A DNA stretch of 64,000 nt from Eledone cirrhosa (lineage: Eukaryota): contig OZ024742.1 of the NCBI GenBank assembly GCA_964016885.1, positions 154,504,001-154,568,000 of the forward strand, written 5' to 3'. The notes below the pieces were generated by a model. It saw nothing but the letters and a program-made list of their open reading frames with translations, did no database searches and was not told the DNA's origin. Below, piece after piece: positions 13,926 through 60,018 of the stretch. Every line of letters starts with the position of its first letter. The first letter of the stretch is position 1. Position numbers and translations under genes: made by a program.

Positions 13926-15878
13926 GGTTTAAAGAAATAATGTTTAAATATTTTAGATTCTTCAACATATATGCTATTACATTAAAATGTACAGGTATAG
14001 ATAGATGTATGCTTGGATGAGACAAACATGCAATAATGTTTTGATTCAAGTTCACCAATTGTATTTCAATCATTTTTAGGCAGTTAGCATAATAAAAAGC
14101 TGAGACGATTACACGCACGTTACAACGCAGTAGCTTACACACATGCACCTTCACATATATATGTTTTCTGTGAGATAGGCTTATAGATGCGTCCCACTTG
14201 TGATACAGAAACATCACATGATTAGGTTTTAATTACGAATGACGTCGGCTGCTTTCCCTCATGAAAATATAATGAATTATTTATTTATCTCTTTGAAGGA
14301 CAGAAAATGACAATATGGCTTTTACAAAAATTCAAATTTAAATAATTTGGTTTAGTCATAAATAATCTAATGTTACTGCATCAGAAATTACTGTGGATAG
14401 TTTTTGACACAAAAAAACAGTTTTGCCCGTGCGCTTTTCCCTTTCTTTCTCTCGTTTACTTCCTCTAACTTACATTTTATCTTCCAACGAAGGTCTAACG
14501 TACGAAACAGTAATACATTTTTGTTCTTCTATATGAAGTGTTATAGTAACATATATTATAATTGTAATGTATTTGTATATATATATATATATATATTACT
14601 CTTTTACCTCTTCCAGCCATCCGGCTGAGGCCATGCTGGCACACCATTTATCGACATTTATAAATAAATTATCGCACCGTCAACATGTGGAAAATGTCGA
14701 ACGCAGAATCTAAACTATAATAAAGTAAGGAGTGCAGGACTGCGTACAGTTTATTTCTTTTAATCCAGCTAGTAAAATAAGTTGGATTACTTTCATTAAA
14801 TAATGAATGAATATTACATAATTCATCTACTAAATTTCGGACCTGTTGATTAAATATATGTTATTGTTTATTTAAAGATTCACTTCTTTAAAATGTTCAA
14901 ATGTCAACACTTTCGGTTAGCGATAGCTTAAATAAACATTCATATATTTCTGTCACTAATTATCTCCTAATGTAGTTTATATATAACATCGTCTCCTAAT
15001 GTAGTTTATATATAACATCGTCATCTAAATAACGTTACAAATGGGAGAGAAAATAAGAACACATATGATATATACAAAGCATATAAATAAATTTACAGTA
15101 GAATAACATAACAAATATGTTTTAAATATATACATAAATAACATTACAAATGCTTAGATAACATTATAAATTGCTCACGATTCTCTCAGTAGAATATATT
15201 CCTTTAGTGTTACAATATTAAAGAAAATATAAAGGAAGGGGTGAACAACAGAGCAAAAGACAGCAGCGAGGAGTACTGGAAAACCTCTCTAATGATTTTT
15301 GAGGCAAGCCACCATACTCGTAGTGTTAACTCGGGTGATGGCGAAGCTAATATCAATATGCACACTATACATGCTGTCAGAAAACCACCCGAAGGATGGT
15401 TTATCTGCTAATATAACATTAAATATAATCGATTGCTATAAATAATTAGAATGTCGTGTAAATTACCCCCGTAGATGGAAAATGTGGCCACCAAGCTAAA
15501 CTGTAACGAATTTTGTATCCCTCAAATTTGGACTATATGTTCTTGCACTATTGAGCTTAAATGACACCTGGCGATAATTACGGTCTAAATATTAGTATAT
15601 ATCCAATTGAAGTATGATGAAATATGCAAACTAACCATCTGAACGAATCTATTTACAACAATGTTGCACAGTTATTTTCATCGCTCCATGTTTTCTTCAT
15701 TTTCTAAGGATATATATATATGTTACAATTCAATCTATACACGTGTAGCAGAACATTGAACTGAACTTACTTGCGTGTGTATAGGGTTGACCCAATATTT
15801 CCAATTTACATCGTCAAATCTCAATTTGACGATTATAACGTTTGTTGTTTTGTAATTTAACTTTCGGTGAATACTATT

Positions 15879-16091
15879 TTGGTAAATTTATATATTTTCT
15901 TTGACCTCGCGTCAGTGTGTGTGAGTGTGTGTGTACTCACTCACACTAACTGTGACTATCTATAGTTCTACAGATTTGATGCTATGTTGGTAAATGTATA
16001 TATTTTTTTCTTTGACCGCGCTTCGGTGTGTGTGAGTGTGGGTGTACCCACTCACATTAACTGTGACCGATTGTAATTCTACAGATTTGAT
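15879..16091. repeat. Imperfect tandem duplication of about 110 bp
   Basis: TTGGTAAAT.TATATATTTT...GTGTGTGTGAGTGTG...CTAACTGTGAC...TTCTACAGATTTGAT occurs twice. Confidence 0.8.
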
Positions 16092-17914: not shown

Positions 17915-17994
17915 AAGCTGTTACTTAAATATAAGTATGTGTTCGTACACATATATATGTATACAGACGTACAGTAGTATGTATATATATATAT

Positions 17995-18032
<38 letters not shown>

Positions 18033-18214
18033 GTACGTATGGATTTACCGAACAGTTATTATACATATATGTATACAGACGTACAGCATCCTGTCTTTGT
18101 CAGTGTTGAACAAAAGAGCAGCGATGGTTGCTAAACACTGTACGGCTTCATTCGGGATGTTTGTTTACAAACACAACGAGCATTATAATAAATGTTCGGT
18201 ACATCCATACGTAC

Positions 18215-18245
<31 letters not shown>

Positions 18246-18662
18246 CATGTATTTATCTATATATATACATACTACTGTACGTCTGTATACATATAAATAT
18301 GTACGTATACATACTTATATTTAAGTAACATCCGTACTAAGAGTGAGAAATGAAATTTCGTTTCATTTTTTCCGTTTATCGTTTTCGGTGCACCCGGCCG
18401 ATTAACTTTACTCGATATGCAAATTAGGCTGCTCAGCCGTTAATATGCATAATAAAGTATATACTTTCAGACTTTCAATCATCTTATATGATTGTATACG
18501 GTGATGACGATGGCTAATAAGCTTGAAACTAGTACATCGTTCCTTTGTCACTGTTGAACAAAAGAGCAACGATGGTTGATAAACACTGTACGGCTTAATT
18601 CGGGATGTTTGTTTACAAACACACCGAGCATTATAATAAATGTTCGGTAAATCCATACCTAC

Positions 18663-18694
<32 letters not shown>

Positions 18695-18701
18695 ATGTAT
18701 G

Positions 18702-18733
<32 letters not shown>

Positions 18734-18778
18734 CATACACCTCTACGTCTGTATACATTATGTGTATGTACGTATACG

Positions 18779-18790
<12 letters not shown>
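17915..18790 (+). mobile_element. Dispersed retrozyme-like repeat (about 1.5 units of about 448 bp, with inverted 5' segment) containing a decayed hammerhead
   Basis: CTTTGTCA..GTTGAACAAAAGAGC recurs at 18095 and 18543. Octamer at 18417. HHR at 18498-18540 (ACGGTG-ATGACGA-TGGCT AATA AGCTT-GAAA-CTAG-TA-CATCGT, C3>A). 17915-18085 is an inverted copy of about 18185-18330. Confidence 0.75.
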
Positions 18791-23408: not shown

Positions 23409-23677
<269 letters not shown>

Positions 23678-23788
23678 AAAAACAAATAAAAACAAATGCA
23701 AATTAGTCTGCCCACTACTAATTTTCATAGAAAAAGCATATAACGCTATGTGCTTTTACGATTCTCTAGAGAGGCCGGAAGATAGGTA

Positions 23789-23833
23789 AATATTGCTGAT
23801 GAGTTGTAACAACAACGAAACTAGTTCAATATT
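23789..23833 (+). ncRNA. Type I minimal hammerhead ribozyme, array unit 1
   Basis: AATATTG-CTGATGA-GTTGT-AACA-ACAAC-GAAA-CTAG-TT-CAATATT: intact core, 7-bp stem I, 5-bp stem II with G10.1-C11.1, palindromic stem III ACTAGT. Predicted cleavage after 23826. Confidence 0.92.
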
Positions 23834-24256
23834 CCTTGTCTGGCTTTCTGGAGAATAGAGGAAAGGTGTTTCCTCAAAAACCAGTATGACTCTAAAATCC
23901 GGTTTGTCTGTGTGTTTACATACGGAATAGCTGGCCACTCACAGTAAAGTGACCAGTGAAAAAAACTTGGTACATCTACATATGTATACGTGTGTGTATT
24001 CATATACATACTAGTATTTCAGTATACATATATGGATGTACATCTTTAACTTAATTGTTTAAGCGTCAGTCATACAAAAGTGAGTTACAAACGAAACGAA
24101 ATTTAATTTCGTTTCGTTATTTGTTTTTATCGTCTCCGTTGAACCGGTACTTACTCACACTCTATGCAAATTAGTCTGCCCACTACTAATTTTCATAGAA
24201 AAAGCATATAACGCTATGTGCTTTTACGATTCTCTAGAGAGGCCGGAAGATAGGTG

Positions 24257-24301
24257 AATATTGCTGATGAGTTGTAACAACAACGAAACTAGTTCAATAT
24301 T
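24257..24301 (+). ncRNA. Type I minimal hammerhead ribozyme, array unit 2
   Basis: Same motif; an upstream A>G change extends stem I to GAATATTG/CAATATTC. Confidence 0.92.
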
Positions 24302-24724
24302 CCTTGTCTGGCTTTCTGGAGAATAGAGGAAAGGTGTTTCCTCAAAAACCAGTATGACTCTAAAAACCGGTTTGTCTGTGTGTTTACATACGGAATAGCT
24401 GGCCACTCACAGTAAAGTGACCAGTGAAAAAAACTTGGTACATCTACATATGTATACGTGTGTGTATTCATATACATACTAGTATTTCAGTATACATATA
24501 TGGATGTACATCTTTAACTTAATTGTTTAAGCGTCAGTCATACAAAAGTGAGTTACAAACGAAACGAAATTTAATTTCGTTTCGTTATTTGTTTTTATCG
24601 TCTCCGTTGAACCGGTACTTACTCACACTCTATGCAAATTAGTCTGCCCACTACTAATTTTCATAGAAAAAGCATATAACGCTATGTGCTTTTACGATTC
24701 TCTAGAGAGGCCGGAAGATAGGTA

Positions 24725-24769
24725 AATATTGCTGATGAGTTGTAACAACAACGAAACTAGTTCAATATT
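24725..24769 (+). ncRNA. Type I minimal hammerhead ribozyme, array unit 3
   Basis: Same motif as unit 1, offset 936. Confidence 0.92.
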
Positions 24770-25192
24770 CCTTGTCTGGCTTTCTGGAGAATAGAGGAAA
24801 GGTGTTTCCTCAAAAACCAGTATGACTCTAAAATCCGGTTTGTCTGTGTGTTTACATACGGAATAGCTGGCCACTCACAGTAAAGTGACCAGTGAAAAAA
24901 ACTTGGTACATCTACATATGTATACGTGTGTGTATTCATATACATACTAGTATTTCAGTATACATATATGGATGTACATCTTTAACTTAATTGTTTAAGC
25001 GTCAGTCATACAAAAGTGAGTTACAAACGAAACGAAATTTAATTTCGTTTCGTTATTTGTTTTTATCGTCTCCGTTGAACCGGTACTTACTCACACTCTA
25101 TGCAAATTAGTCTGCCCACTACTAATTTTCATAGAAAAAGCATATAACGCTATGTGCTTTTACGATTCTCTAGAGAGGCCGGAAGATAGGTA

Positions 25193-25237
25193 AATATTGC
25201 TGATGAGTTGTAACAACAACGAAACTAGTTCAATATT
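25193..25237 (+). ncRNA. Type I minimal hammerhead ribozyme, array unit 4
   Basis: Same motif as unit 1, offset 1404. Confidence 0.92.
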
Positions 25238-25660
25238 CCTTGTCTGGCTTTCTGGAGAATAGAGGAAAGGTGTTTCCTCAAAAACCAGCATGACTCTAAA
25301 ATCCGGTTTGTCTGTGTGTTTACATACGGAATAGCTGGCCACTCACAGTAAAGTGACCAGTGAAAAAAACTTGGTACATCTACATATGTATACGTGTGTG
25401 TATTCATATACATACTAGTATTTCAGTATACATATATGGATGTACATCTTTAACTTAATTGTTTAAGCGTCAGTCATACAAAAGTGAGTTACAAACGAAA
25501 CGAAATTTAATTTCGTTTCGTTATTTGTTTTTATCGTCTCCGTTGAACCGGTACTTACTCACACTCTATGCAAATTAGTCTGCCCACTACTAATTTTCAT
25601 AGAAAAAGCATATAACGCTATGTGCTTTTACGATTCTCTAGAGAGGCCGGAAGATAGGTA

Positions 25661-25705
25661 AATATTGCTGATGAGTTGTAACAACAACGAAACTAGTTCA
25701 ATATT
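25661..25705 (+). ncRNA. Type I minimal hammerhead ribozyme, array unit 5
   Basis: Same motif as unit 1, offset 1872. Confidence 0.92.
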
Positions 25706-26128
25706 CCTTGTCTGGCTTTCTGGAGAATAGAGGAAAGGTGTTTCCTCAAAAACCAGTATGACTCTAAAAACCGGTTTGTCTGTGTGTTTACATACGGAAT
25801 AGCTGGCCACTCACAGTAAAGTGACCAGTGAAAAAAACTTGGTACATCTACATATGTATACGTGTGTGTATTCATATACATACTAGTATTTCAGTATACA
25901 TATATGGATGTACATCTTTAACTTAATTGTTTAAGCGTCAGTCATACAAAAGTGAGTTACAAACGAAACGAAATTTAATTTCGTTTCGTTATTTGTTTTT
26001 ATCGTCTCCGTTGAACCGGTACTTACTCACACTCTATGCAAATTAGTCTGCCCACTACTAATTTTCATAGAAAAAGCATATAACGCTATGTGCTTTTACG
26101 ATTCTCTAGAGAGGCCGGAAGATAGGTA

Positions 26129-26173
26129 AATATTGCTGATGAGTTGTAACAACAACGAAACTAGTTCAATATT
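26129..26173 (+). ncRNA. Type I minimal hammerhead ribozyme, array unit 6
   Basis: Same motif as unit 1, offset 2340. Confidence 0.92.
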
Positions 26174-26652
26174 CCTTGTCTGGCTTTCTGGAGAATAGAG
26201 GAAAGGTGTTTCCTCAAAAACCAGTATGACTCTAAAAACCGGTTTGTCTGTGTGTTTACATACGGAATAACTGGCCACTCACAGTAAAGTGACCAGTGAA
26301 AAAAACTTGGTACATCTACATATGTATACGTGTGTGTATTCATATACATACTAGTATTTCAGTATACATATATGGATGTACATCTTTAACTTAATTGTTT
26401 ATATATATATATATTAGTGTATAGTGGTAGCTATGTTGCTTCTGTAGGCGGTATGCCAAAATTAGCACTCGATATTCAATTCATAGGGCTCAATCCATAC
26501 AAGGACCATGACTCGAGCTACATGCCGGCGAAACATTTGTAACACGAAATAAACTAAGTCTAGATGCATCACTGATTTTTCGTTTTCTTCGTAATATATA
26601 TATATATTAATTCAAAATATTAACAAAATAGATATTCTTGTGATCAAGTATA

Positions 26653-26715
26653 TTTCATTATACATATTTCAGAGGTACTGAGTTAACTTCAACAGCACGC
26701 CCTCATCAGATAAAA
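26653..26715 (-). ncRNA. Type I hammerhead ribozyme motif
   Basis: Minus strand: TTTTAT-CTGATGA-GGGCGTGCTG..CAGTACCTCT-GAAA-TATGTA-TA-ATGAAA. Confidence 0.7.
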
Positions 26716-27852: not shown

Positions 27853-28092
27853 CTGGGTGTATGGGTGTGTGGGTGTGTGTGTGTGTGTGTGTGTGGGTGT
27901 GTGTGTGTGTGAATTGCAGACCTGGAAGCAGGAGCTGCGCCAGCAGTGACAATTGTAGTTTCGCCTATGGATATTATTTCTGTGCAAAAAAGTCTTGAAA
28001 TTTATTGTTTCACAGTACTTGCGCAACATGCGCGTAGACGATGCCAACCGAACAACAGAGCTGCGATGGAGTTGTTCTGCATGGTTGTCTGT

Positions 28093-28461
28093 GTGTTTTC
28101 TAAATTTAAGACAGTAGGGAGGGTTGTGTTATGAGGGAGAGTTAGCTGTTGTTTCTAGCAGGTTTAGTGACCTCATAGAGGATATGTGTTTTCTAAATTT
28201 AAGACAGTAGGGAGTGGTGTGATATGGGGGAGAGTTAGCTGCTATTTCTAGCAGGTTTAGTGACCTCATAGAGGATATGTGTTTTCTAAATTTAAGACAG
28301 TAGGGAATGGTGTGATATGGGGGAGAGTTAGCTGCTGTTTCTAGCAGGTTTAGTGACCTCGTAAAAGATATGTTTTCTAAATTTAAGACAGTAGGGAGGG
28401 GTGTGGTATGGGGGAGAGTTAGCTGCTGTTTCTAGCAGGTTTAATGACCTCATAGAGGATA
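28093..28461. repeat. Minisatellite, 4 x about 93 bp
   Basis: GTGTTTTCTAAATTTAAGACAGTAGGGA...CTAGCAGGTTTAGTGACCTCATAGAGGATAT starting at 28093, 28186, 28279 and about 28370. Confidence 0.95.
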
Positions 28462-29244
28462 TTATTGTTTATCATTATCTATAAAATGCAGATTGTTGTT
28501 GTTGTTGTTGAAGTGAGTGTGTGTTTGTATACGTTTGGAAAAGAGGTTTTAAAAAAGATTTATCGCGTGTTGTTGAATAAATGTATCTGTTGCTTTTGAA
28601 TAATTGTCGTTTCGTATGAAATGTAATAATTGTTTCTACTTTTTTGGCACAAGGCCAGCAATTATCCAGTACATTACTGGTACTTTATGTAATAATAAAC
28701 GTTCACTATCTCTCTCCCTCTCACTCTCTTCTCTCTCTCTCTTCGGCAATCACACACGTTGTCAGATGATATGAGAGAGTAAAACGGACAGTATCACCAT
28801 CAAGCTTGGAAAGAGAAAGTTGCAGATAGTATGAAGTTGTATAGATTTTGAATGGTAGTGGAAAGAGTTTAGCAGTTTAAATGACAGAGGAAAATCGTAA
28901 AATATTGAGTTTTATCTATTTTTTGCGTAATTGTGGGTGAAATTGAAAAAATTAGATGTGCCAGGACGCAATCGATGCTATTTCGAATACTCAATTGTAA
29001 ATTTCAATTGAAGAAATTCTATATCGTAGATTTCTATAAGAAAGGAGCATGACCACACACTGAGCTTTATAGATTATGATGCAATATATATCTAAACATA
29101 TCTGGTTGACCGTTAATATTCAAAATATTTAATTTAAGTTATTTCAGAGTAATTAATAATATTTTAGGTTTTAAAATTAATAGGTTATTGTATTAATATT
29201 AAAGTATACTATCAAATTTAATTTCTAAAATCAAATTTTATGAA

Positions 29245-33960: not shown

Positions 33961-34014
<54 letters not shown>

Positions 34015-34056: not shown

Positions 34057-34138
34057 GCCTTTACCATGGTTTCAAGTTCCAGAAAAAACGGATAATCCAG
34101 GCGGAGTTCCATTGAGAAGGGAACCATCTTCAGAAGGC
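34057..34138 (-). ncRNA. Type I hammerhead ribozyme motif
   Basis: Minus strand GCCTT-CTGAAGA-TGGTTCC...GGAACTT-GAAA-CCATGG-TA-AAGGC. Stem III is the palindrome ACCATGGT. Confidence 0.75.
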
Positions 34139-34245: not shown

Positions 34246-34329
<84 letters not shown>

Positions 34330-36063: not shown

Positions 36064-38077
36064 TTCTCAGTTTCATCATGTTTTAATGAAGTCTCAATAT
36101 TCTAAGTTGATTTTATAAGTTTGTGTTTCAGCGATTAGAGTTACAATATATATTAGATTAGATGCTGTGTTCCTGTTTCTTCTACAAAGCGGTTGGAGGC
36201 CGAAAGAGTCCACGGTGGAACCGCATTGACGTTGGTGTGTCTGGCAGATCCGGAGTCCGAGCCTCAGGGAAACGCCGATGCGCAGGCTATGGTTATCTAG
36301 CTGCGTACCAGTGGAAAAGGAGGGTAGGGCATGGAACTAGGCACCAATGAAGGCCGCAGGAAACCAAGCAAGGAGGTGCTGGTCGAGCTGGCGCGTGAGC
36401 CTGTTTGAGGCCAGGCTGCTATGGATGGCATCCCAAGTCCGTTGGGGGGACTTGACGTACAACAGGAGGGAACTCTTCTGGGCTAAGTCCCAGCCGGTCC
36501 CACGTCTCGCAGGCGGCCTCACGTTCTCTGAACACAGAGGGTTCCGTTGTGTTTTGAAGAACCCTCCTGACGAGGACACGGCACGAGGTTACCGACGAAA
36601 GATACGCCGGAAAAGATAGTGAGATCGGGGACCGGAGGCCAAGGCCGCCATACCTGACAGGTAAAGTGGCCTGTTGCCACCCTGTGTCGTTCAACTTGAT
36701 GTTACATATCTCCTCGGCTGCTGTTCGGATACAAGTATCGAGGTAAGCGAGGAGAGATGTCTGGTTGTAGCACGGATCGCTGAGGAGTGTATAGAGGAGC
36801 TTCGGCATGGCGAAGCAGTTCCTAAGCAGAAAGAGAGATGGGTGGCCGTCAATCAAGCCTAGTTGGCTCGTGACAGTCTGGAGCTGTTGAAGCCTGGATC
36901 TGATGGTTGAGCGGATGGCCGGCAGGTGGATCGGTGACTTGAGGATGAGGACATCCTCTTTGGGAGTTACCTGAACCTGGCCGAGAATGGACCGCACATC
37001 CAAGACGGAAGCTGCAAAGCTCACAGCATCGAGGCTGACATTCACCACTTCTGACTTGGCCGAGTTGACCTGGAGGCTGATTCTCGCCAGGGCAGGAACC
37101 ACCGGTTGAAGGTCATGGCAGACCGTCCGTACGGGCCCGCCTAACGTAGCATCATCCAGATACCAAACGTTGAGGGGAGCCGTGATACTCAGGGCGATGT
37201 GGTCAATAGCAAGGGCGAACAGGAGGGGTCTCAAATGGTCACCAGTAGCCGAGGGTATGACCGTATCAGCAGCAAGGAGCATGCGCGGAGCTCCATAAGA
37301 CAGGTAGACCAGCGGGTAGGCAGAGGGAGCTCGGCTTAGGCAGGCCTCGAGCAGATCATCCCAGCGTAAAGAGTTGAAGGCATTCCTCATATCAAGCTTG
37401 ACAATGAGGTGCCTGGAGTCCCTGGATGCCGGTTCCGATGGGCAACTGAAATAACTGCCTGGTTTCATGAGCGGCACCCTCACAGCCACCGAACACGCAG
37501 ACACCCAGTTGCACCGGACTAAACTCCTCAACCAGTTCGTGTGTTACAGACTTGCAGATCACCTGGTCAGCGAGCCTCCGGAAGACATTGCCCACAGCAA
37601 TGGGGCTTATGCCACCCTCTTTCTTCCTTAGAGAGGTGAGGCTAGCTGAAAAAAGAGTCCTCGTAGGTAAGAGTCAAGGGCACCATGGATGAGCCTATTG
37701 ATCACCGTCACAATTGCACTCAGAAGGCGGCACCCGGCCTCAGCGTAGAGGGAGGGATATCAACTCCTTGAGGTGCCCTGGTCTGAGACTACCAACACCT
37801 CCGCAGCTGCTAACTGGGAAGGACGTGATGGCAGACATGATGCCTGCATCATAATCCACAAGGAGCAAGTGGGTGTCGCGTGGGGGTATGGGTATGAGAT
37901 CAGTGGGTGGCTCAGTGTGTTTGAGTCGCAGAGTAGCCTGGAGCTCCTCGGTGGGTTGGAGGAGAGTGTCTTCTGAGGCAACAAGTCTGACTCCGGCCGA
38001 GACATCACCCATGATAGGCTTCGCATTTACTTGGTCACGCAAACGCTTGGCGCTGGCCTCGGGGGTGGAGGATAGGG
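36064..38077 (-). mobile_element. CRE-clade non-LTR retrotransposon, 5'-truncated and frameshifted
   Basis: IAVGNVFRRLA, PVQLGV..GGCEGAAH, KLDMRNAFNS, WYLDDATLGG, WQQATLPVRYGGLGLRS, QRTWD and SLRLG..C..H..CG motifs. GC-rich relative to the flanks. Confidence 0.85.
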
Positions 38078-47347: not shown

Positions 47348-47400
<53 letters not shown>

Positions 47401-47404
<4 letters not shown>

Positions 47405-48004
47405 TATGTATATATGTATACGTACATACATATATGTATACAGACGTACAGCAGTATGTATATATATACATACATGCACACCTATATATATATGCACGTA
47501 TCGGTTTACCGAACATTTATTATAATGTAAACAAACAAGTGAGAAATGAAATTTCGTTTCATTCTATTCCATTTATCGTTTTCGGTGCGCCCAGCCGACT
47601 AAACTCACTCGATATGCAAATTAGGCTGCTCAGCCATTAATATGCATAAGGAAAGTATATACTTTCAGACGTTCAACCATCTGCCAGGAAGGTATACGAT
47701 GCTGACGATAGCTAATAAGCTTGAAACTAGTACATCGTTCCTGTGTCAGTGTTGAACAAAAAGGTGACGTGGTTGCCTAAACACTGTACAGCGTAATTCG
47801 GGCTGTTTGTTTGTTTACAAACAAAAAAACCGAGCATTATAATAAATATTCGGTAAACCGATACGTGCATATAGATATATGTGTGCATGTATGTACATAT
47901 ATACATACTACTGTACGTCTGTATACATATATGTATGTACGTATACATACATACTTACATTTAAGTAACAGCCGTACTAAGAGTGAGAAATGAAATTTCG
48001 TTTC
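47401..48004 (+). mobile_element. Dispersed retrozyme-like repeat (one 444-bp unit plus overlap, inverted 5' segment)
   Basis: GTGAGAAATGAAATTTCGTTTC at 47539 and 47983. Octamer at 47614. 47401-47527 is an inverted copy of about 47835-47957. Confidence 0.8.
47696..47738 (+). ncRNA. Type I minimal hammerhead ribozyme
   Basis: ACGATG-CTGACGA-TAGCT-AATA-AGCTT-GAAA-CTAG-TA-CATCGT. Core intact, with a U.U mismatch at 10.1/11.1. Confidence 0.85.
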
Positions 48005-48045
48005 TTTCTATTACATGTATATACTTATATATATACATATATATG

Positions 48046-48077
<32 letters not shown>

Positions 48078-53732: not shown

Positions 53733-54332
53733 GGGGGAGAACATGGAATAGGGTTTGTAAACATTTAGAAAATGTTTTAATAGTGGTGGTAGTAGAACTA
53801 ATGTGGATAGGATTATAATATTGCTGATGCTGATGATGTGACATACGAGCTTTTCTTTTCTTGCAGCAGTTAAGTCCAGATCCTGAAGATATATGATCAC
53901 TGATATTTCATTCACGACCAACAATTTTTTTAAAAAATATATCTAAGCCTACATTCTCTCGTTTGCACTTCCTGGTTTGCAGTTGTTTTAAAAAGTCGAG
54001 CGATTGTAAAAAATGTATGTGTTGTTTTCGTTGTTGTTGTTTGTGTTGTTTAGTTCTAGTGCAGCATTGATGTAGTTGATGTCTGATCAAAGGTGTTCCC
54101 TCCCTTGTTGTGATACCAATAAACATATTTTACTATTTATTACGGCGATGGATTTGGCAGAACAATTATAATGTCGGATAACATTGTTCGCGTTATCAAT
54201 TTTAGCTATTAAGTACAAATACCACAGTGATCATTTTTTTTTAGAATTTCGTGGCTCAACTTAATCGGCTATCCGCTCTTATAACATTGCTTTCACTGTG
54301 CCTTTTTTAGAAGCATTATTTTTCAAATCCAA

Positions 54333-54730
54333 GGGCGGTGAATTGGCAGTATCGGTAGAGAGTTGGACGCCATGCTTTGACGCATAGAGTTACTGCCCTT
54401 GCCATTCTGAGTTCAAATCCCGCCGAGGTTAACTTTGCCTTTCATCCTTACGGGGTCGATAAAATAAAGTACCAGTAATGTACTGGGTAATTGCTGGCCT
54501 TGTGCCAAAAGTAGAAATAATTATTTTTCCAATCCATAAGGCGGTGGATTGGCAGTATCGGTAGAGGATCGGATGCCATGCTTTGAAGCATAGAGTTACC
54601 TCCCTGTATGATCTGAGTTCAAATCCCGCCGGGGTTAACTTTGCCTTTCATCCTTCCGGGGTCGATAGAATAAAGTACCAGTAATGCATTGGGTAATTGC
54701 TGGCCTTGTGCCAAAAGTAGAAACAATTAT
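54333..54730 (+). mobile_element. Two tandem full-length SINE copies
   Basis: Consensus at 54333-54522 and 54540-54730, bounded by a repeated TTTTC(C/A)AATCC(AT)AAG. Confidence 0.9.
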
Positions 54731-55634
54731 TTTCCAATCCATAAGTTCTAAATTGTGGAATCCTGGCTCATATTTCTAGCAATTTGAGTTACCACGAAGC
54801 AGCTATGTTTCTTATAAGTACAACGAGGAAGAAATGCTGGTGGTAATGGAAACGGTATTATTTGCTTATTGTTTTAGATTCAAAGGTTGGCCGTTTCTGA
54901 CAGAGACAGATGTAAATGCTTATCAGTTTGTTATGATGTGATGAGTGAGATGATGTTTTGTTCATGAAGTTGTTGCTTTTATCATTGTTTTATTAATGGG
55001 GGTGAGGACAAAGTCGTTGTTGTTATTGTTAATGGAGTTGATGTTGCGTGTGGTGAGGCTAATGTTGATATTGTTAAAGTTGGTTGACGTTGTATAGAGA
55101 ATATTTCTGGGGATGGTGATGGTAAAAAAGATGTGATGGCGAGGTTGGCAGAGGGGTTTGTGGCCTCAGTGATAGAGGCTATACTGATAGTAATACTTTT
55201 GAGGTATCAGATTTTTTGTTTACGCTAAGTTTATTATTTTTTTTTTTTATTTGTGTCTTGTTAATCGTTTAACTGATAGCTATCACAATGTCAACTGTAA
55301 TTGTAGACGATGTTTTAAGGAAAGGGGAATTGAATGTATGTATATAGATGGTATTCGATGGAAATTATACATTTTTACTATTTACTGGTTCCAGTCACAG
55401 TATTATGACCCTCTCAAGAAACCGCATAAATGAGTTTTTAGTTTGACATGTACAGCCCCGTACTTATTTTACGAGCACTCTATTTTCGTTATTTCCTTTA
55501 AACTCACTCGTACAGACGCGTGTGGGCTAAGCCAGATTGAAAATGTCTAGGGTTCAGTGTAATTTAAGTTTGCTCTTCTGAACGCTCATTTGGGTCTGGG
55601 GATATGCAATCATTGTGCCTCCGTCCATATATTG

Positions 55635-55770
<136 letters not shown>

Positions 55771-55788
55771 TATAATAATAATAATAAT

Positions 55789-58640
55789 ATACCTTGAGGC
55801 GAGGAGCCTTCACCAGTGCAACAATATCCTCAAAGCAACAGCAAATACGGTGAGGAAACTACTTGGTATAAAAGCGAGAGGAAACAACAGACAAGAAAGA
55901 GCAGAGCCGTGGTGGAAGAAGCGACTGAGTGGGCAAATCGGGGAAATGAGAAATGACATAGGAAAGCTTGAGTCACTACTGAATGGGACACTAAAAAACA
56001 TAGGCACTAAAAATAGACTGGAAATAAAATACAAAACTAGGAGTAAAAAGCTAAATATTATCATAGAGGAATTGAAGCAACGCATTGTAGCAAAGAGTGC
56101 AAAAATCAGGCGATACGAGAACAGAGTCAGTCAGTATAAACAGAACCGCATGTTCGACAACAACCAGAAGATGCTGTTTGGACAGCTTGAGGGGAAAGAA
56201 AGAGGCAACGACTTGATCCCTGGGGCGGAACAAACTAAAACATTCTGGAGAGGAATATGGGAGCAGGATGTTAGACACAATGCCCAGGCAGGGTCGATTG
56301 AGACAGTACAGAGGGAGATCGGTGAGCAGGCACAACAACAGACTGATTTGAGTATCACAGTTGAAACTCTTAAGGGGCAAGCCCAAAAACTAACCAACTG
56401 GAAATCACCAGGCCCAGATGGTGTGCAGGGGTATTGGATTAAACATTTAACATCCCTCCACCCGAAGCTGACGGCCATGTTCAATGACTGCTTGGTGTCG
56501 GGTGAGGTGCCAGAGTGGTTGACAAAAGGTACCACAGTTCTGATAATGAAAGACCGAATCAAGGGTAATGATGTTACCAACTATAGACCTATCACATGTC
56601 TGCCCGTAATGTGGAAACTGTTGACGAGCATTGTGTCTGAGGAAATCTACCATCACCTCCACACAAACAACTTGTTACCGGACGAACAGAAAGGATGCCG
56701 AAAGAAGTCACGTGGTACAAAGGACCAGTTGCTTATTGATAAGATGGTAATGGGGAATTGGAGGAGGAGACACACTGATCTTGCCATGGGATGGATAGAC
56801 TACAGAAAGGCATTTGACATGGTGCCTCATTCCTGGATCACCAAAAGCCTGGAGATCTTCAGGGTGGCAGATAACATCAGACAGTTGCTAGGCAGGAGTA
56901 TGGGGTCCTGGGAGATAGAGCTGACATCAACTGGAGTATCCTTGGGAAGCGTGAAGATCAAGAGAGGTATCTTCCAGGGAGATAGCCTGTCCCCTCTGTT
57001 GTTTGTCCTTGCCCTGATGCCCTTGACCATTATGCTGCGAAAAGTGAGAGCAGGATACAAGTTGGGAAGGGGAGAGCTTACCATCAATCACCTCCTCTTC
57101 ATGGACGATCTTAAGCTCTTCGGGAAAAGTGAGAAGGAGTTGGATGTGCTTGCTGACACTGTCCGTATTTTCAGCAGTGATATATGTATGCAGTTTGGTA
57201 TTGGTAAATGTGGAGTCATTGGGATGAAGAGGGGTAGGTTGAGCAGAAGTAACGGGATCCAGATACCAACAGGTGAGATGATAAAGGAAATTGACTCTGA
57301 GGAAGGATACAAGTATTTGGGCGTTCTGGAGGCTGATGGCATAAAGAACAAAAAAATGAAGGAATTGTTAAGAACTGAATACATTCGGAGAGTAAGGAGC
57401 GTATTGAAGTCACATCTGAACAGCAGAAATGCCATAAGCGCAGTAAATTCCCGAGCTGTGTCTATTATTAGGTACAGTGCGGGAATTCTGAGATGGAATG
57501 TTGCTGAACAAAAAGAAATGGATAGGAAGACTAGGAAGCTATTGACTATCTACAACATGTTCCACAAGAGGAGTGATGTCGATATACTCTACCTAAGGAG
57601 ATCTGAGGGTGGAAGAGGTCTTATCAGCATAGAGGACTGTGTTCAGATGGAGAAAAACAACCTATACAAATACGTGACCTATAGTAAGGAGCCAATGCTC
57701 AGAACTGTACTGAAGGAGGGGACAGTAGGCCAGGGGATGTCCAAGGAGGAAATAACATCAAGGAGGAAGAGCAGCCTTAAGGGAAAATCCCTTCATAGTA
57801 CCTTCTTTGTGAAAACTGAATTTAGAGATCCACAGACATGGAACTGGTTGAGAAGAGGAGACCTCAAAAAGGCTACAGAAGGAATGCTAATGGCTGCGCA
57901 GGAGCAGGCCCTCAAGACGAAGTGGTTGAAGCACCATATCTACAAGGAGGAGGCTAGCCCACTGTGCAGGATCTGTGGAGAGAGGAGACTGTGGCTCACA
58001 TTGTGTCCGAGTGTAAACACCTAGCCCAGACCCACTATAAGGGCTGGAGACACGATGTGATGGGCAGGGTGATCCACTGGCACCTGTGCAAAGTAAACAA
58101 TCTACCACATTCTGAGAAATGGTATGAGCATAGGCCAGAGGCGGTGATGGAGAACAATCAGGTGAAGGTGCTGTGGGATTTTAGGATACAGACGGACAAA
58201 AAACTGGAACACAATAGACCTGACCTGGTGGTTGTGGACAAAGAAAAAAGATCGTGCCTGATTGTGGATGTAGCCTGCCCGTTCGACACGAGAGTGCAAG
58301 AGAAGGAGAGGGAGAAAATTAACCGATACCAGGACCTAAAGTGGGAGGTGAAAAGGATTTGGAACTGCCATGAAGTCAAAGTTATCCCGATTGTCATAGG
58401 CGCACTGGGGACTATCTCCAAAAGTTTCCAGGGATGGTTAAAGAAAGTCGGCCCCTTCACGCTTTTTGGAACGCTTCTAAAGGCATGCTTGCTTGGAACA
58501 GCAAGAACCCTCCGATACGTCCTGAATATCTGAGGCTGCAGGTAGTGGCTTGATATTCAATCCAACGGACTTTCCAGTTAACCAACATCAATGACTGAGA
58601 TTCAAGGAATAACAATAACAATAATAATAATAATAATAAT
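55789..58640 (+). mobile_element. Dong/R4-clade non-LTR retrotransposon, 5'-truncated, inserted in (AAT)n
   Basis: RT + CCHC + restriction-like endonuclease, with (AAT)n at both ends (55715-55788 and 58608-58640). TAA-repeat targeting is known for Dong. Confidence 0.92.
55850..58533 (+). pseudogene. Reverse transcriptase-RLE polyprotein with a single frameshift near 57980
   Basis: NWKSPGPDG, NYRPITCL, WIDYRKAFDMVPH, GIFQGDSLSPLLF, HLLFMDD, CRICGE / ETVAHIVSEC, RHD, WDFRIQTD..HNRPD..VDVACP..EK..RYQDL. Confidence 0.92.
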
Positions 58641-59707: not shown

Positions 59708-59761
<54 letters not shown>

Positions 59762-59772
<11 letters not shown>

Positions 59773-60018
59773 ACATATGGGTTTACCGAACATTTATTAT
59801 AATGCTCGTTTTGTTTGTAAACACACAGCCCAAATTATTAGCCGTACAGTGTTCGGCAACCATCGTTGCCCTTTTGTTCATCACTGACAAAGGAACGATG
59901 AACTAGTTCCTACCTTCTTAGCTGTCATCAGCACCGTATACCTTGGTGTCAGATGATTTAAAATATATACTTTCCTTATGCATATTAAAGGCTGAGCAGC
60001 CCAATTTGCATATCGACC
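59762..60018 (-). mobile_element. Partial copy of the retrozyme-like family with a decayed hammerhead (59895-59937)
   Basis: Minus strand ATGCAAAT..GCTGCTCAGCC..ACGGTG-CTGATGA-CAGCT AAGA AGGTA-GGAA-CTAG-TT-CATCGT. Confidence 0.8.

What the first reader, a model, noticed from the sequence alone, without database searches (positions are those of the whole stretch)
47401..48004. Circularly permuted, slightly-more-than-unit-length insertions with inverted 5' segments
Seen: the family copies begin at different points in the unit. The array starts at the octamer, the 47.5-kb copy starts and ends at GTGAGAAATG (444-bp period), and the 18-kb copy starts just 3' of the HHR (448-bp period). The 18-kb and 47.5-kb copies are each preceded by an inverted piece of themselves, and most copies abut (TA)n. 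Known: inverted 5' segments are typical of Penelope-like integrations, and PLEs are proposed mobilisers of non-LTR retrozymes. Inference: reverse transcription around a circular or multimeric RNA by a PLE RT/GIY-YIG that prefers TA-rich targets.
Basis: partly seen in the sequence, partly recalled or inferred. Interest (0 to 1): 0.72.

Follow-up and report, generated by a model that had tools for sequence, protein, structure and literature searches.

The report
Penelope-type insertions of a hammerhead retrozyme
This is one copy of a small non-coding repeat with a hammerhead (self-cutting RNA) motif whose many copies end at two fixed points beside TA repeats and often sit as back-to-back pairs, the same marks that protein-coding Penelope-like jumping genes leave in this genome, so it was likely copied in by their enzyme; both the kind of element and the enzyme's two start points are already in print.

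Summary
Window 47404-48020 holds a 124-nt inverted piece, one full 444-bp unit and 37 extra bases, set in (TA)n. The 18-kb copy and the 468-bp array are relatives.

The copies are not freely permuted. In 80 genomic loci (151 arms), 3' ends fall at two fixed unit positions, u37 (77 arms) and about u419 (58 arms). Most abut (TA)n. Only the 5' ends vary, and arm length runs from 0.1 to 3.4 units.

54 head-to-head arm pairs were found. In 40 of the 44 that could be classified, one arm ends at each site.

Two autonomous RT/GIY-YIG Penelope-like families in the same genome also have two alternative ends, 46-65 nt apart. One of them shows the same (TA)n flanks and mixed-end pairs.

This matches published Penelope biochemistry (PMC11167929): both DNA strands are extended, there are two internal start sites, and the "tail" is the stretch between them.

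The family is therefore a new member of the metazoan non-LTR retrozymes, most likely mobilised by Penelope-like enzymes. Whether the template was a circle or an uncut multimer is unresolved. No partner element was identified and no RNA data were available.

Earlier agents of this scan reported the same pattern for other families on other DNA of this genome.

The parts
47351..47403 (.). (TA)n tract on the left of the insertion (target microsatellite)
47404..47539 (-). Inverted arm. Its outer end is at the 'body' start site (about u419). It runs inward to u296 (47527) and, by reading, after a 17-nt gap on to about u270 at 47537.
   Evidence: (I1)
47540..48020 (+). Direct arm: u1-444 plus u1-37. 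Its outer end is at the 'tail' start site u37.
   Evidence: (D2)
47696..47738 (+). Type I hammerhead motif: helix I ACGATG/CATCGT, core CTGACGA (47702-47708), a 4-bp helix II, a 2-bp helix III, predicted cleavage after 47732 (u193|u194).
   Evidence: No Rfam hammerhead hit here at E up to 10.
47543..47560 (+). Conserved hairpin (u4-21), 16 nt upstream of the tail start site. A second copy lies at 47987-48004.
48021..48077 (.). TA-rich tract / (TA)n on the right of the insertion
17917..18063 (-). Inverted arm of the older 18-kb copy (u433 down to u299, 77% to the unit)
18087..18784 (+). Direct arm of the 18-kb copy: u194-444 plus u1-414. It starts at the hammerhead cleavage position, ends at the body site and is followed by (TA)n to 18865. 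The hammerhead core is mutated (ATGACGA). 18061-18086 is a 26-nt filler that repeats part of the inverted arm.
23696..26401 (+). Array of 5.8 units of the homologous 468-bp subfamily. It holds six hammerhead motifs. The 5' end is at the octamer, the 3' end is at the body-site equivalent (...AATTGTTTA|TATATA), and (TA)n lies on both sides.
23676..23689 (-). Probable 14-nt inverted mini-arm (ATAAAAACAAATAA). It is the reverse complement of the tail-site end of the 468-bp unit and sits directly after the (TA)n tract.
   Evidence: read. A-rich, so chance is not excluded.
59708..60016 (-). Old partial copy (u70-398, 78%) between two (TA)n tracts

Best explanation
The feature at 47.4-48.0 kb is a two-armed insertion of a 444-bp non-coding hammerhead-ribozyme repeat (a metazoan non-LTR retrozyme) in a (TA)n tract. 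It was most likely written there by target-primed reverse transcription carried out by the RT/GIY-YIG protein of a Penelope-like element (PLE), which would have primed from both DNA ends at two fixed internal sites of the RNA.

Shown:
- The family has hundreds of dispersed copies or more.
- Its arms end at u37 ('tail site') or at about u414-424 ('body site').
- Most of these ends abut (TA)n.
- The 5' ends are scattered over the unit.
- Arms span 0.1-3.4 units.
- Inverted arms always face head-to-head.
- Most pairs use one start site each.
- Autonomous PLEs of the same genome show the same two-site, (TA)n-flanked, mixed-pair anatomy.

Inferred:
- The endonuclease cuts both strands of a (TA)n target.
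- Each 3'-OH primes cDNA synthesis on retrozyme RNA. One primes at u37, just 3' of a conserved hairpin, and the other about 60 nt upstream.
- The two cDNAs grow towards each other and are joined at variable points, often at short homologies such as the palindrome ATTATAAT.
- In the window copy, the body-site cDNA stopped after about 124-135 nt and the tail-site cDNA stopped after one full turn (481 nt).
- The template was continuous across the ribozyme cleavage site. It was either a ligated circle copied round and round or an uncut multimeric transcript, and I cannot tell which.
For: Fixed 3' ends:
- 26 of 27 first-sample junctions run ...TTCCATTTAT into (TA)n.
- In 80 loci with 151 arms, 77 arms end at u20-45, 58 at u405-430 and 16 elsewhere. 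These are 52 discovery loci, which include the window copy itself, plus 28 replication loci.
- 108 of the 135 classified 3' ends are followed by 20 nt with at least 70% TA/AT dinucleotides.
- Contigs of two public runs of unknown kind show (TA)n loose ends right behind 47576 (= u37) in 40 and 50 contigs.

(TA)n as target:
- Among 32 single arms, perfect (TA)6 or longer lies within 40 nt of the 5' boundary in 14 and of the 3' boundary in 24. The baseline is 7%.

Inverted arms:
- There are 54 '-' then '+' (head-to-head) neighbour pairs, with gaps of -50 to +71 bp.
- There are 11 '+' then '-' neighbour pairs, and 10 of them are 38 bp or more apart.
- Mixed-end pairs number 27 against 2 same-end pairs in discovery (binomial 8e-7), and 13 against 2 in replication (0.004).
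- The inner junctions differ from locus to locus, so these are independent events.

Hammerhead:
- 60 of 80 units have an intact core and helices.
- 7 units carry an A-U to U.G double change in helix I.
- Helix I differs but still pairs between subfamilies.

Autonomous PLEs in the same genome:
- A PF01541 search gave 10597 candidates.
- Five of five PLE-A copies end ...CACTTTCTAAT|(AT)n.
- A second PLE-A end, ...CTTTTTCTTTA|(TA)n, lies about 65 nt upstream.
- Three of three two-armed PLE-A insertions are mixed-end.
- PLE-B has two ends 46 nt apart.

Published support:
- A purified PLE protein cleaves AT-rich DNA and extends both strands. It starts reverse transcription at two adjacent internal RNA sites, and the genomic 'tail' is the stretch between them (PMC11167929, main text read).
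- The PLE hallmarks are 5' truncation, partial tandems, an adjacent inverted 5'-truncated copy, a one-sided tail and, for the Naiad clade, (TA)n targets (PMC8557442, passages).
- PLEs are proposed as the mobilisers of retrozymes (PMC7761336, passages; preprint 10.64898/2026.07.22.740005, sections 14 and 16).
Against: - No enzyme was linked directly. The unit shares no detectable sequence with the 3' regions of 84 sampled PLE loci, apart from separate neighbouring retrozyme copies. The tails of PLE-A and PLE-B lack the retrozyme's strong hairpin.
- The tail here (about 57-62 nt) is longer than the published 30-40 bp.
- In vitro, no difference of start site between the two strands was seen, so the mixed-end rule has no published basis.
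- Rfam finds no hammerhead in the 444-bp copy at E up to 10. In the array it finds only sub-threshold HH9 matches (37.7 bits against a gathering score of 52).
- The loci are the best-scoring matches to the window copy, and the first search favours copies of at least one unit. They are not a random sample.
- (TA)n is rarer at 5' boundaries (14 of 32) than at 3' boundaries (24 of 32), so part of the tract could be added at integration.
- The one-template test is weak. Within-locus units and arms are only modestly more alike than copies from other loci (median rank 0.13-0.21), and many are not more alike at all.
Confidence: 0.78

Rival explanations
1. The template was a closed circular retrozyme RNA, cut by the hammerhead and ligated. 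It was copied by rolling-circle reverse transcription, and both arms of an insertion came from one circle. This is a more specific form of the best explanation.
For: - 70 of 135 classified arms are longer than one unit, so they read across the ribozyme cleavage site without a break.
- Only 2 of 135 5' ends lie at u190-200, where 3.3 are expected, so cut linear monomers were not the usual template.
- Arms reach 3.4 units, although most sampled genomic copies have fewer than 3. A length-regenerating step would explain this.
- A few loci have units or arms that are each other's nearest relatives: L004, L007, L015, L025, L064 and L070.
- The unit folds as a circle far better than shuffled sequence does (-125.4 against -92.6 +/- 6.1 kcal/mol, z -5.4, n=60).
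- Circular RNAs of metazoan retrozymes are reported (PMC7229834 abstract, listing; PMC7761336 passages).
Against: - Uncut multimeric transcripts explain the same facts.
- For a PLE in vitro, ribozyme cleavage was not needed and unprocessed RNA was the dominant substrate.
- Many within-locus unit pairs are no more alike than random family members.
- The expected stop after exact whole turns is not significant: 16 of 77 tail arms end inside the tail segment, against 14% expected (P 0.065).
- No RNA data were available.
Confidence: 0.4
2. The copies are 5'-truncated remains of an autonomous Penelope-like element whose pseudo-LTR is this unit. There would then be no separate non-coding element.
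For: - In Xenopus, retrozyme families are sister to PLE pseudo-LTRs (preprint, section 14).
- Family copies lie within a few kb of PLE ORF remnants in 5 of 84 PLE loci: L053, L054, L097, L118 and L137.
Against: - In the 80 family loci, runs of units were joined only where gaps were at most 130 bp. No run was broken by a long stretch of the kind a coding body would leave, and arms continue through up to 3.4 head-to-tail units.
- In L054 the copy is a separate insertion in its own (TA)n tract, 1.2 kb beyond the ORF and past unrelated sequence.
- No PLE 3' region in the 84 loci resembles the unit.
- The longest ORF in a trimer of the unit is 73-75 aa.
Confidence: 0.07
3. A LINE-type reverse transcriptase mobilised the repeat, as for a SINE. 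The (TA)n would be a 3' tail and the inversions would come from L1-style twin priming.
For: - The family shows a fixed 3' end followed by a simple repeat, together with 5' truncation and inversions.
- LINE-like RT ORFs occur in the window itself (55769-58024).
Against: - (TA)n also lies at the 5' boundary of 14 of 32 single arms, against a 7% baseline.
- Two alternative start sites, a one-sided tail and mixed-end pairs are seen in the RT/GIY-YIG elements of this genome. The literature read here describes them as unique to PLEs.
- No LINE 3' end was compared, so this rival is not fully tested.
Confidence: 0.06
4. The element is DNA-level. Either it is a Helitron/Helentron-like rolling-circle transposon (AT target, subterminal 3' hairpin, tandem read-through copies), or it is a satellite reshaped by unequal crossing-over and palindrome-driven inversion.
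For: - A hairpin lies 16 nt before the 3' end and the flanks are A/T dinucleotides.
- Tandem units are present.
- The preprint notes that the taxon distribution of retrozymes also resembles that of Helitron-like elements.
Against: - The ends read ...CCATTTAT or ...TTTA, not the Helitron termini. Those termini are recalled, not taken from a call.
- The 5' ends are scattered across the unit.
- There are two alternative 3' ends, with mixed-end head-to-head pairs.
- Hundreds of short dispersed copies with precise ends do not fit satellite dynamics.
- The RT/GIY-YIG elements have the same anatomy.
Confidence: 0.04

Closest known systems
Metazoan non-LTR retrozymes (Cervera and de la Pena 2020, PMC7229834: search listing and passages seen; review PMC7761336: passages seen)
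   Same: A non-coding, AT-rich (37% GC) repeat of a few hundred nt in head-to-tail copies. Each unit carries a type I hammerhead with a weak 2-bp helix III. There is no LTR, PBS or PPT. Copies longer than one unit occur.
   Different: The 444-468 bp unit is slightly above the 170-400 nt range given in the abstract. Most copies are short (0.1-3.4 units) and dispersed in (TA)n, often two-armed. Expression and circularity could not be examined here. The review states that no conserved motif points to the autonomous partner. Here the insertion ends do point to one class of partner.
Insertion units of endonuclease-positive Penelope-like elements (Craig et al. 2021, PMC8557442, passages; Frangieh et al. 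2024, PMC11167929, main text)
   Same: 5' truncation, partial tandems, an adjacent inverted 5'-truncated copy, a tail present at one end only, AT-rich/(TA)n targets, a hammerhead motif and two internal start sites with both strands extended.
   Different: There is no ORF, so the element is non-autonomous. The tail is about 57-62 nt against the published 30-40 bp. The two arms of a pair nearly always use different start sites, which the in vitro work did not see.
Retrozymes as non-autonomous derivatives of PLE pseudo-LTRs (Li, Clavereau and Pollet 2026 preprint, 10.64898/2026.07.22.740005; sections 14 and 16 read; its supplements are closed)
   Same: The same proposed relationship. PLEs and retrozymes co-occur in one genome.
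   Different: That work rests on co-occurrence and on sequence relatedness in Xenopus. Here no sequence relatedness to a PLE was found. The link rests on insertion anatomy, in an invertebrate-type genome that earlier notes of this scan call octopus-like. I did not check that call.
Non-autonomous Chlamys elements such as MRC1 (Craig et al. 2021, passage seen)
   Same: Non-coding elements that form pseudo-LTRs and multicopy head-to-tail insertions using PLE machinery.
   Different: Those share their 3' ends with autonomous families and lack canonical hammerheads. This family has a hammerhead and no identified partner.
Twin priming of LINE-1 (mechanism recalled; the term was seen only in search listings)
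   Same: It works alike: both 3'-OH ends of the cut target prime cDNA synthesis, which gives an inverted 5' segment next to the direct 3' segment.
   Different: A different enzyme class. Here both priming events start at fixed internal RNA sites, not at a poly(A) tail plus a random internal site.

Membership tests
Metazoan non-LTR retrozyme | Type I hammerhead ribozyme motif in the unit | tested here: met
   My own pattern scan finds core, helices I-III and a cleavage site in the 47.5-kb copy and in six array units. 60 of 80 genomic units are intact, with paired changes in helix I. Rfam gives only sub-threshold HH9 hits in the array and none in the 444-bp copy.
Metazoan non-LTR retrozyme | Head-to-tail repeats of a few hundred nt without LTR, PBS or PPT, and non-coding | tested here: met
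   Arms of up to 3.4 units and an array of 5.8 units. The longest ORF in a unit trimer is 73-75 aa. GC is 36.9%. PBS and PPT were not searched for as motifs.
Metazoan non-LTR retrozyme | Expressed as abundant linear and circular RNA; ribozyme self-cleaves | not testable with these tools
   No RNA run was listed. Contigs of runs of unknown kind cannot show RNA ends.
Penelope-like element insertion unit | Fixed 3' end(s) with frequent 5' truncation and partial tandems | tested here: met
   135 of 151 arms end at one of two sites. The 5' ends are spread over the unit.
Penelope-like element insertion unit | Inverted 5'-truncated copy directly at the 5' end | tested here: met
   54 head-to-head pairs in 80 loci. 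There are 11 opposite-order neighbour pairs, and 10 of them are 38 bp or more apart.
Penelope-like element insertion unit | Tail (the sequence between two internal RT start sites) present at one end only | tested here: met
   The start sites u37 and about u419 lie 57-62 nt apart. 40 of 44 classifiable pairs have one end of each kind. The same holds in 3 of 3 two-armed PLE-A insertions.
Penelope-like element insertion unit | AT-rich / microsatellite target | tested here: met
   (TA)n follows 108 of 135 3' ends. It lies near 14 of 32 single-arm 5' boundaries, against a 7% baseline.
Penelope-like element (autonomous) | ORF with RT and GIY-YIG endonuclease | tested here: not met
   No coding capacity in the unit and no long gap within any run of units in the 80 loci. 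The family is therefore filed as non-autonomous.
Non-autonomous derivative of a given PLE family | Sequence similarity to the pseudo-LTR / 3' end of an autonomous partner | tested here: inconclusive
   None in 84 PLE loci. Those were drawn from the 150 scored of 10597 candidates, so a partner may have been missed.
Helitron/Helentron | Characteristic termini and a subterminal 3' hairpin, insertion at an A/T dinucleotide (features recalled, not from a call) | tested here: not met
   A hairpin 16 nt from the end and A/T flanks are present. However, the ends read ...CCATTTAT or ...TTTA, there are two alternative 3' ends, and the 5' ends are scattered.

The most novel reading that the evidence does not exclude
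Integration is concerted. One Penelope-type RT/endonuclease dimer holds a single retrozyme RNA, probably a circle, by its roughly 60-nt tail region, and hands each end of the cut (TA)n target to one of two start sites. Nearly every two-armed insertion therefore carries one tail-site arm and one body-site arm, both copied from the same molecule, with rolling-circle copying regenerating multi-unit arrays.
Probability: 0.3. Interest if true: 0.75.

Novelty: new member of a known kind. Interest (0 to 1): 0.5.

Why it matters
In the papers read here, Penelope-like enzymes are proposed as the mobilisers of animal retrozymes on two grounds only: co-occurrence and, in frogs, sequence relatedness.

This family adds a different kind of evidence. 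Its insertions carry the Penelope-specific footprint that was recently reproduced in vitro, namely two internal start sites, a one-sided tail, both strands extended and AT-rich targets. The coding Penelope-like elements of the same genome show the same footprint.

The family also yields one observation that the in vitro work did not show. The two arms of an insertion nearly always use different start sites, which hints at a coordinated two-ended reaction.

It gives defined substrates for a bench test: a 444-nt RNA with known start sites at u37 and about u419, and a (TA)n target.

Tried and rejected
- RNA evidence. No RNA holder was listed for the stretch. I laid four runs of unknown kind. They gave only short repeat contigs, which cannot show RNA ends, strand or circles.
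- One-template test. Within-locus units and arms are only modestly more alike than other-locus copies (median rank 0.13-0.21). There are some nearest-neighbour cases and many with no excess. The result is inconclusive for this older family.
- Run-off at the ribozyme site. The 18-kb copy and L084 start at u194. Overall, 2 of 135 5' ends lie at u190-200, where 3.3 are expected, so there is no excess.
- 'Stop after a whole turn' or collision clusters. 5' ends at u36-39 and at about u423 looked enriched in the first sample but did not hold up. For u30-45 there were 7 against 4.9 expected, and tail arms ending inside the tail segment numbered 16 of 77 (P 0.065).
- Pol III terminator. The TTTT just after u37 is not conserved in the 468-bp subfamily, so I dropped the idea.
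- Partner search. There is no similarity of the unit to 84 PLE loci, and no strong hairpin in the PLE-A or PLE-B tails.
- Window RT ORF. The 751-aa ORF at 55769-58024 has RVT_1 only and no GIY-YIG. From its motifs I read it as LINE-like, not Penelope-like.
- L054 and L053. The retrozyme copies near PLE ORF remnants are separate insertions, not pseudo-LTRs.
- Rfam at gathering thresholds finds nothing in the window.
- Papers. Searching 'Penelope-like' with 'twin priming' gave 3 papers, none on PLE twin priming by title. Searching 'hammerhead ribozyme' with 'octopus' gave 5 papers (4 listed), none describing such elements by title.

Full report
**What is at the coordinates**

I numbered the repeat unit u1-u444 from window 47540 to 47983. 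The region reads as follows:
- (TA)n, 47351-47403.
- An inverted piece, 47404-47527, equal to u419 down to u296 and 94% identical to the unit.
- One full unit, 47540-47983.
- The first 37 bases of the unit again, 47984-48020.
- TA-rich sequence.

The direct repeat has a spacing of 444. The inverted repeat spans 129 nt at 93% complementarity.

The 18-kb copy has the same build. It has an inverted arm 17917-18063, a 26-nt filler, and a direct arm 18087-18784 with a 448-bp period, followed by (TA)n.

The array 23696-26401 (468 bp x 5.8) is homologous to the 444-bp unit over its whole length.

An old fourth copy lies at 59708-60016.

**The ribozyme**

Rfam's gathering thresholds give nothing. At permissive thresholds the six array units match Hammerhead_HH9 below threshold (37.7 bits against 52). 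The 444-bp copy gives no match.

A pattern scan of my own requires the core CUGANGA...GAAA, a helix II of at least 3 bp, a helix III of at least 2 bp, a non-G residue at the cleavage site and a helix I of at least 5 bp. It finds one motif per array unit and one in the 47.5-kb copy, with cleavage after 47732 (u193|u194).
- Helix I is ACGAUG/CAUCGU here and AAUAUUG/CAAUAUU in the array.
- Among 80 genomic units that cover the motif, 60 are intact, 18 have a broken core and 2 have weak helices.
- Seven units carry a double change (A-U to U.G) in helix I.
- The 18-kb copy has a dead core (ATGACGA).

**Genome-wide ends**

The window lies in a 3.0-Gb genome. I took the 30 best loci of each of three DNA searches.
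- Whole unit: 3096 first-look candidates, many of them probably TA-rich noise.
- u101-200: 176 candidates.
- u201-290: 492 candidates.
- In each search 40 candidates were scored.

I then dropped:
- seven overlapping duplicates;
- one local duplicate (L017);
- the window's own locus where it came up again in the third search (L145);
- one repeat of L026 (L151).

That left 52 'discovery' loci, which include the window copy itself, and 28 'replication' loci. These are the best-scoring matches, not a random sample. The first search favours copies of at least one unit.

I call a run of same-strand matches an arm. Of 151 arms, 77 end (3') at u20-45, 58 at u405-430 and 16 elsewhere. In the first sample, 26 of 27 junctions read ...TTCCATTTAT and then (TA)n. 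Of the 135 classified ends, 108 are followed by TA-rich sequence.

The 5' ends are spread over the whole unit. The copies are therefore not circularly permuted. They have two fixed 3' ends and variable 5' truncation. Arm length runs from 38 to 1515 bp, and 70 of the 135 classified arms exceed one unit.

**Two-armed insertions**

- 54 pairs of arms lie head-to-head ('-' then '+'), with gaps of -50 to +71 bp.
- There are 11 neighbour pairs in the opposite order, and 10 of them are 38 bp or more apart.
- In the pairs where both outer ends can be classified, one arm ends at u37 and the other at about u419 in 27 of 29 (discovery) and 13 of 15 (replication).
- The binomial probabilities against 0.5 are 8e-7 and 0.004.
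- The exceptions are three tail/tail pairs and one body/body pair. Ten further pairs have an unclassifiable end.
- The inner junctions differ between loci and often show short homologies, for example the palindrome ATTATAAT at u297.
- The array in the window fits the pattern. Its 3' end is at the body-site equivalent, and a probable 14-nt inverted mini-arm from the tail-site equivalent sits at its 5' side (read).

**Is (TA)n target or tail?**

Among 32 single arms, a perfect (TA)6 or longer lies within 40 nt of the 5' boundary in 14 and of the 3' boundary in 24. The baseline for random 80-nt windows is 7%. The tract is therefore mostly a target. Some extension at the 3' side cannot be excluded.

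**Autonomous elements of the same genome**

A six-frame search with the GIY-YIG family found 10597 candidates. All 150 that were scored lie over the family cut-off.

PLE-A (L043; related copies L044, L048, L051, L052 and L054):
- Five of five copies end ...CACTTTCTAAT|(AT)n.
- A second end, ...CTTTTTCTTTA|(TA)n, lies about 65 nt upstream.
- All three two-armed insertions (L048, L052 and L054) have one end of each kind.

PLE-B (L046, L047 and L050) has two alternative ends 46 nt apart.

The coding Penelope-like elements thus share the retrozyme's two alternative 3' ends, and PLE-A also shares its (TA)n flanks and its mixed-end pairs.

The unit itself has no similarity to the 3' regions of 84 PLE loci. 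The family copies found in five of those loci are separate insertions. The longest ORF in a trimer of the unit is 73-75 aa.

**What is in print**

- Frangieh et al. 2024 (PMC11167929, main text read) purified a Penelope-like protein.
  - It prefers AT-rich DNA and cleaves and extends both strands.
  - It starts reverse transcription at two adjacent internal RNA sites that are not homologous to the target.
  - The genomic tail is the stretch between those two sites.
  - Ribozyme cleavage was dispensable, and unprocessed RNA was the main substrate.
  - No difference of start site between the strands was seen.
- Craig et al. 2021 (passages) list 5' truncation, partial tandems, the adjacent inverted copy, the one-sided 30-40-bp tail and (TA)n targets of Naiads.
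- De la Pena and colleagues (passages) name PLEs as likely mobilisers. They also state that the repeats show no motif that identifies the partner.
- Li et al. 2026 (sections 14 and 16; supplements closed) relate Xenopus retrozymes to pseudo-LTRs.

The kind of element, the proposed mobiliser and the two-site mechanism are therefore all known. What this family adds is that a retrozyme carries the full Penelope footprint, side by side with coding elements that carry it too, and that the two arms of a pair almost always use different start sites.

**Circle or multimer?**

Most tail-site arms (51 of 77) read across the ribozyme site. The 5' ends do not pile up there (2 of 135 against 3.3 expected). 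The usual template was therefore not a cut linear monomer.

Beyond that the evidence is thin:
- The unit folds well as a circle (z -5.4).
- Some loci have units or arms that are each other's nearest relatives, but many do not.
- The excess of arms that stop inside the tail segment after whole turns is not significant (16 of 77, P 0.065).
- No RNA run was available.

I put the circle route at about 0.4.

**Rivals**

- Pseudo-LTR of a coding element: no long gap interrupts any run of units in the 80 loci.
- LINE-driven SINE-like copying with a (TA)n tail: (TA)n also lies at 5' boundaries, and the two-site tail is a Penelope trait. No LINE 3' end was compared.
- Helitron-like or satellite origin: the ends and the mixed-end pairs do not fit.

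**Earlier notes of this scan**

Other agents reported the same two-armed, two-site pattern for other hammerhead families (310, 422, 430, 467 and 615 bp) on other DNA of this genome. I tested the pattern independently here.

**Verdict**

This is a new member of a known kind. It gives useful but confirmatory mechanistic evidence, plus one new regularity, the mixed-end pairs.

Noticed in passing
window 34062-34133 (- strand), between (TA)n tracts at 33963-34012 and 34246-34326: A second kind of hammerhead-like motif with a long helix II (core CTGAAGA). The same type occurs twice, 459 bp apart, downstream of the PLE-A ORF in locus L044 (6200-6269 and 6659-6728). It is probably another ribozyme-bearing element family inserted in (TA)n.
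   Followed up: partly
window 55769-58024 and 57958-58533 (+ strand): A 751-aa open frame with an RVT_1 domain and no GIY-YIG, followed by an overlapping 191-aa frame. It starts right after (TA)n/(ATA)n at 55637-55789. From its motifs I read it as a 5'-truncated LINE-like element. A weaker RT fragment lies at 36419-37543 (-).
   Followed up: partly
window 54308-54745: Two tandem copies (period 206) of a tRNA-like, SINE-like repeat. Pieces of the same repeat flank family copies in L012 and L007, and in L012 the retrozyme arm abuts its end.
   Followed up: no
alignment A1; window 47612-47640 and each array unit: The block around the octamer (TATGCAAATTAG.CTGC.CA) is among the best conserved parts between the 444- and 468-bp subfamilies, outside the ribozyme and the hairpin. 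It could be a promoter element or an RNA structure.
   Followed up: no
window 47950-48020; 24050-24132: The tail region of both subfamilies folds into two hairpins. One sits at the body start site (ACUUACAUUUAAGU / CUUAAUUGUUUAAG). A stronger one of 9-13 bp lies 16 nt before the tail start site.
   Followed up: partly
loci L048 and L054: Autonomous PLE-A copies form kilobase-long head-to-head palindromes (for example L048 989-4737 against itself, 97%). Their two outer ends lie at different sites about 65 nt apart.
   Followed up: partly
window 26659-26709 (- strand): A hammerhead-like pattern hit just outside the array, with a long irregular helix II. It is probably a chance match of my loose pattern.
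   Followed up: no
window 15874-16091 and 28092-28462: Unrelated tandem repeats of 111 bp x2 and 93 bp x4.
   Followed up: no
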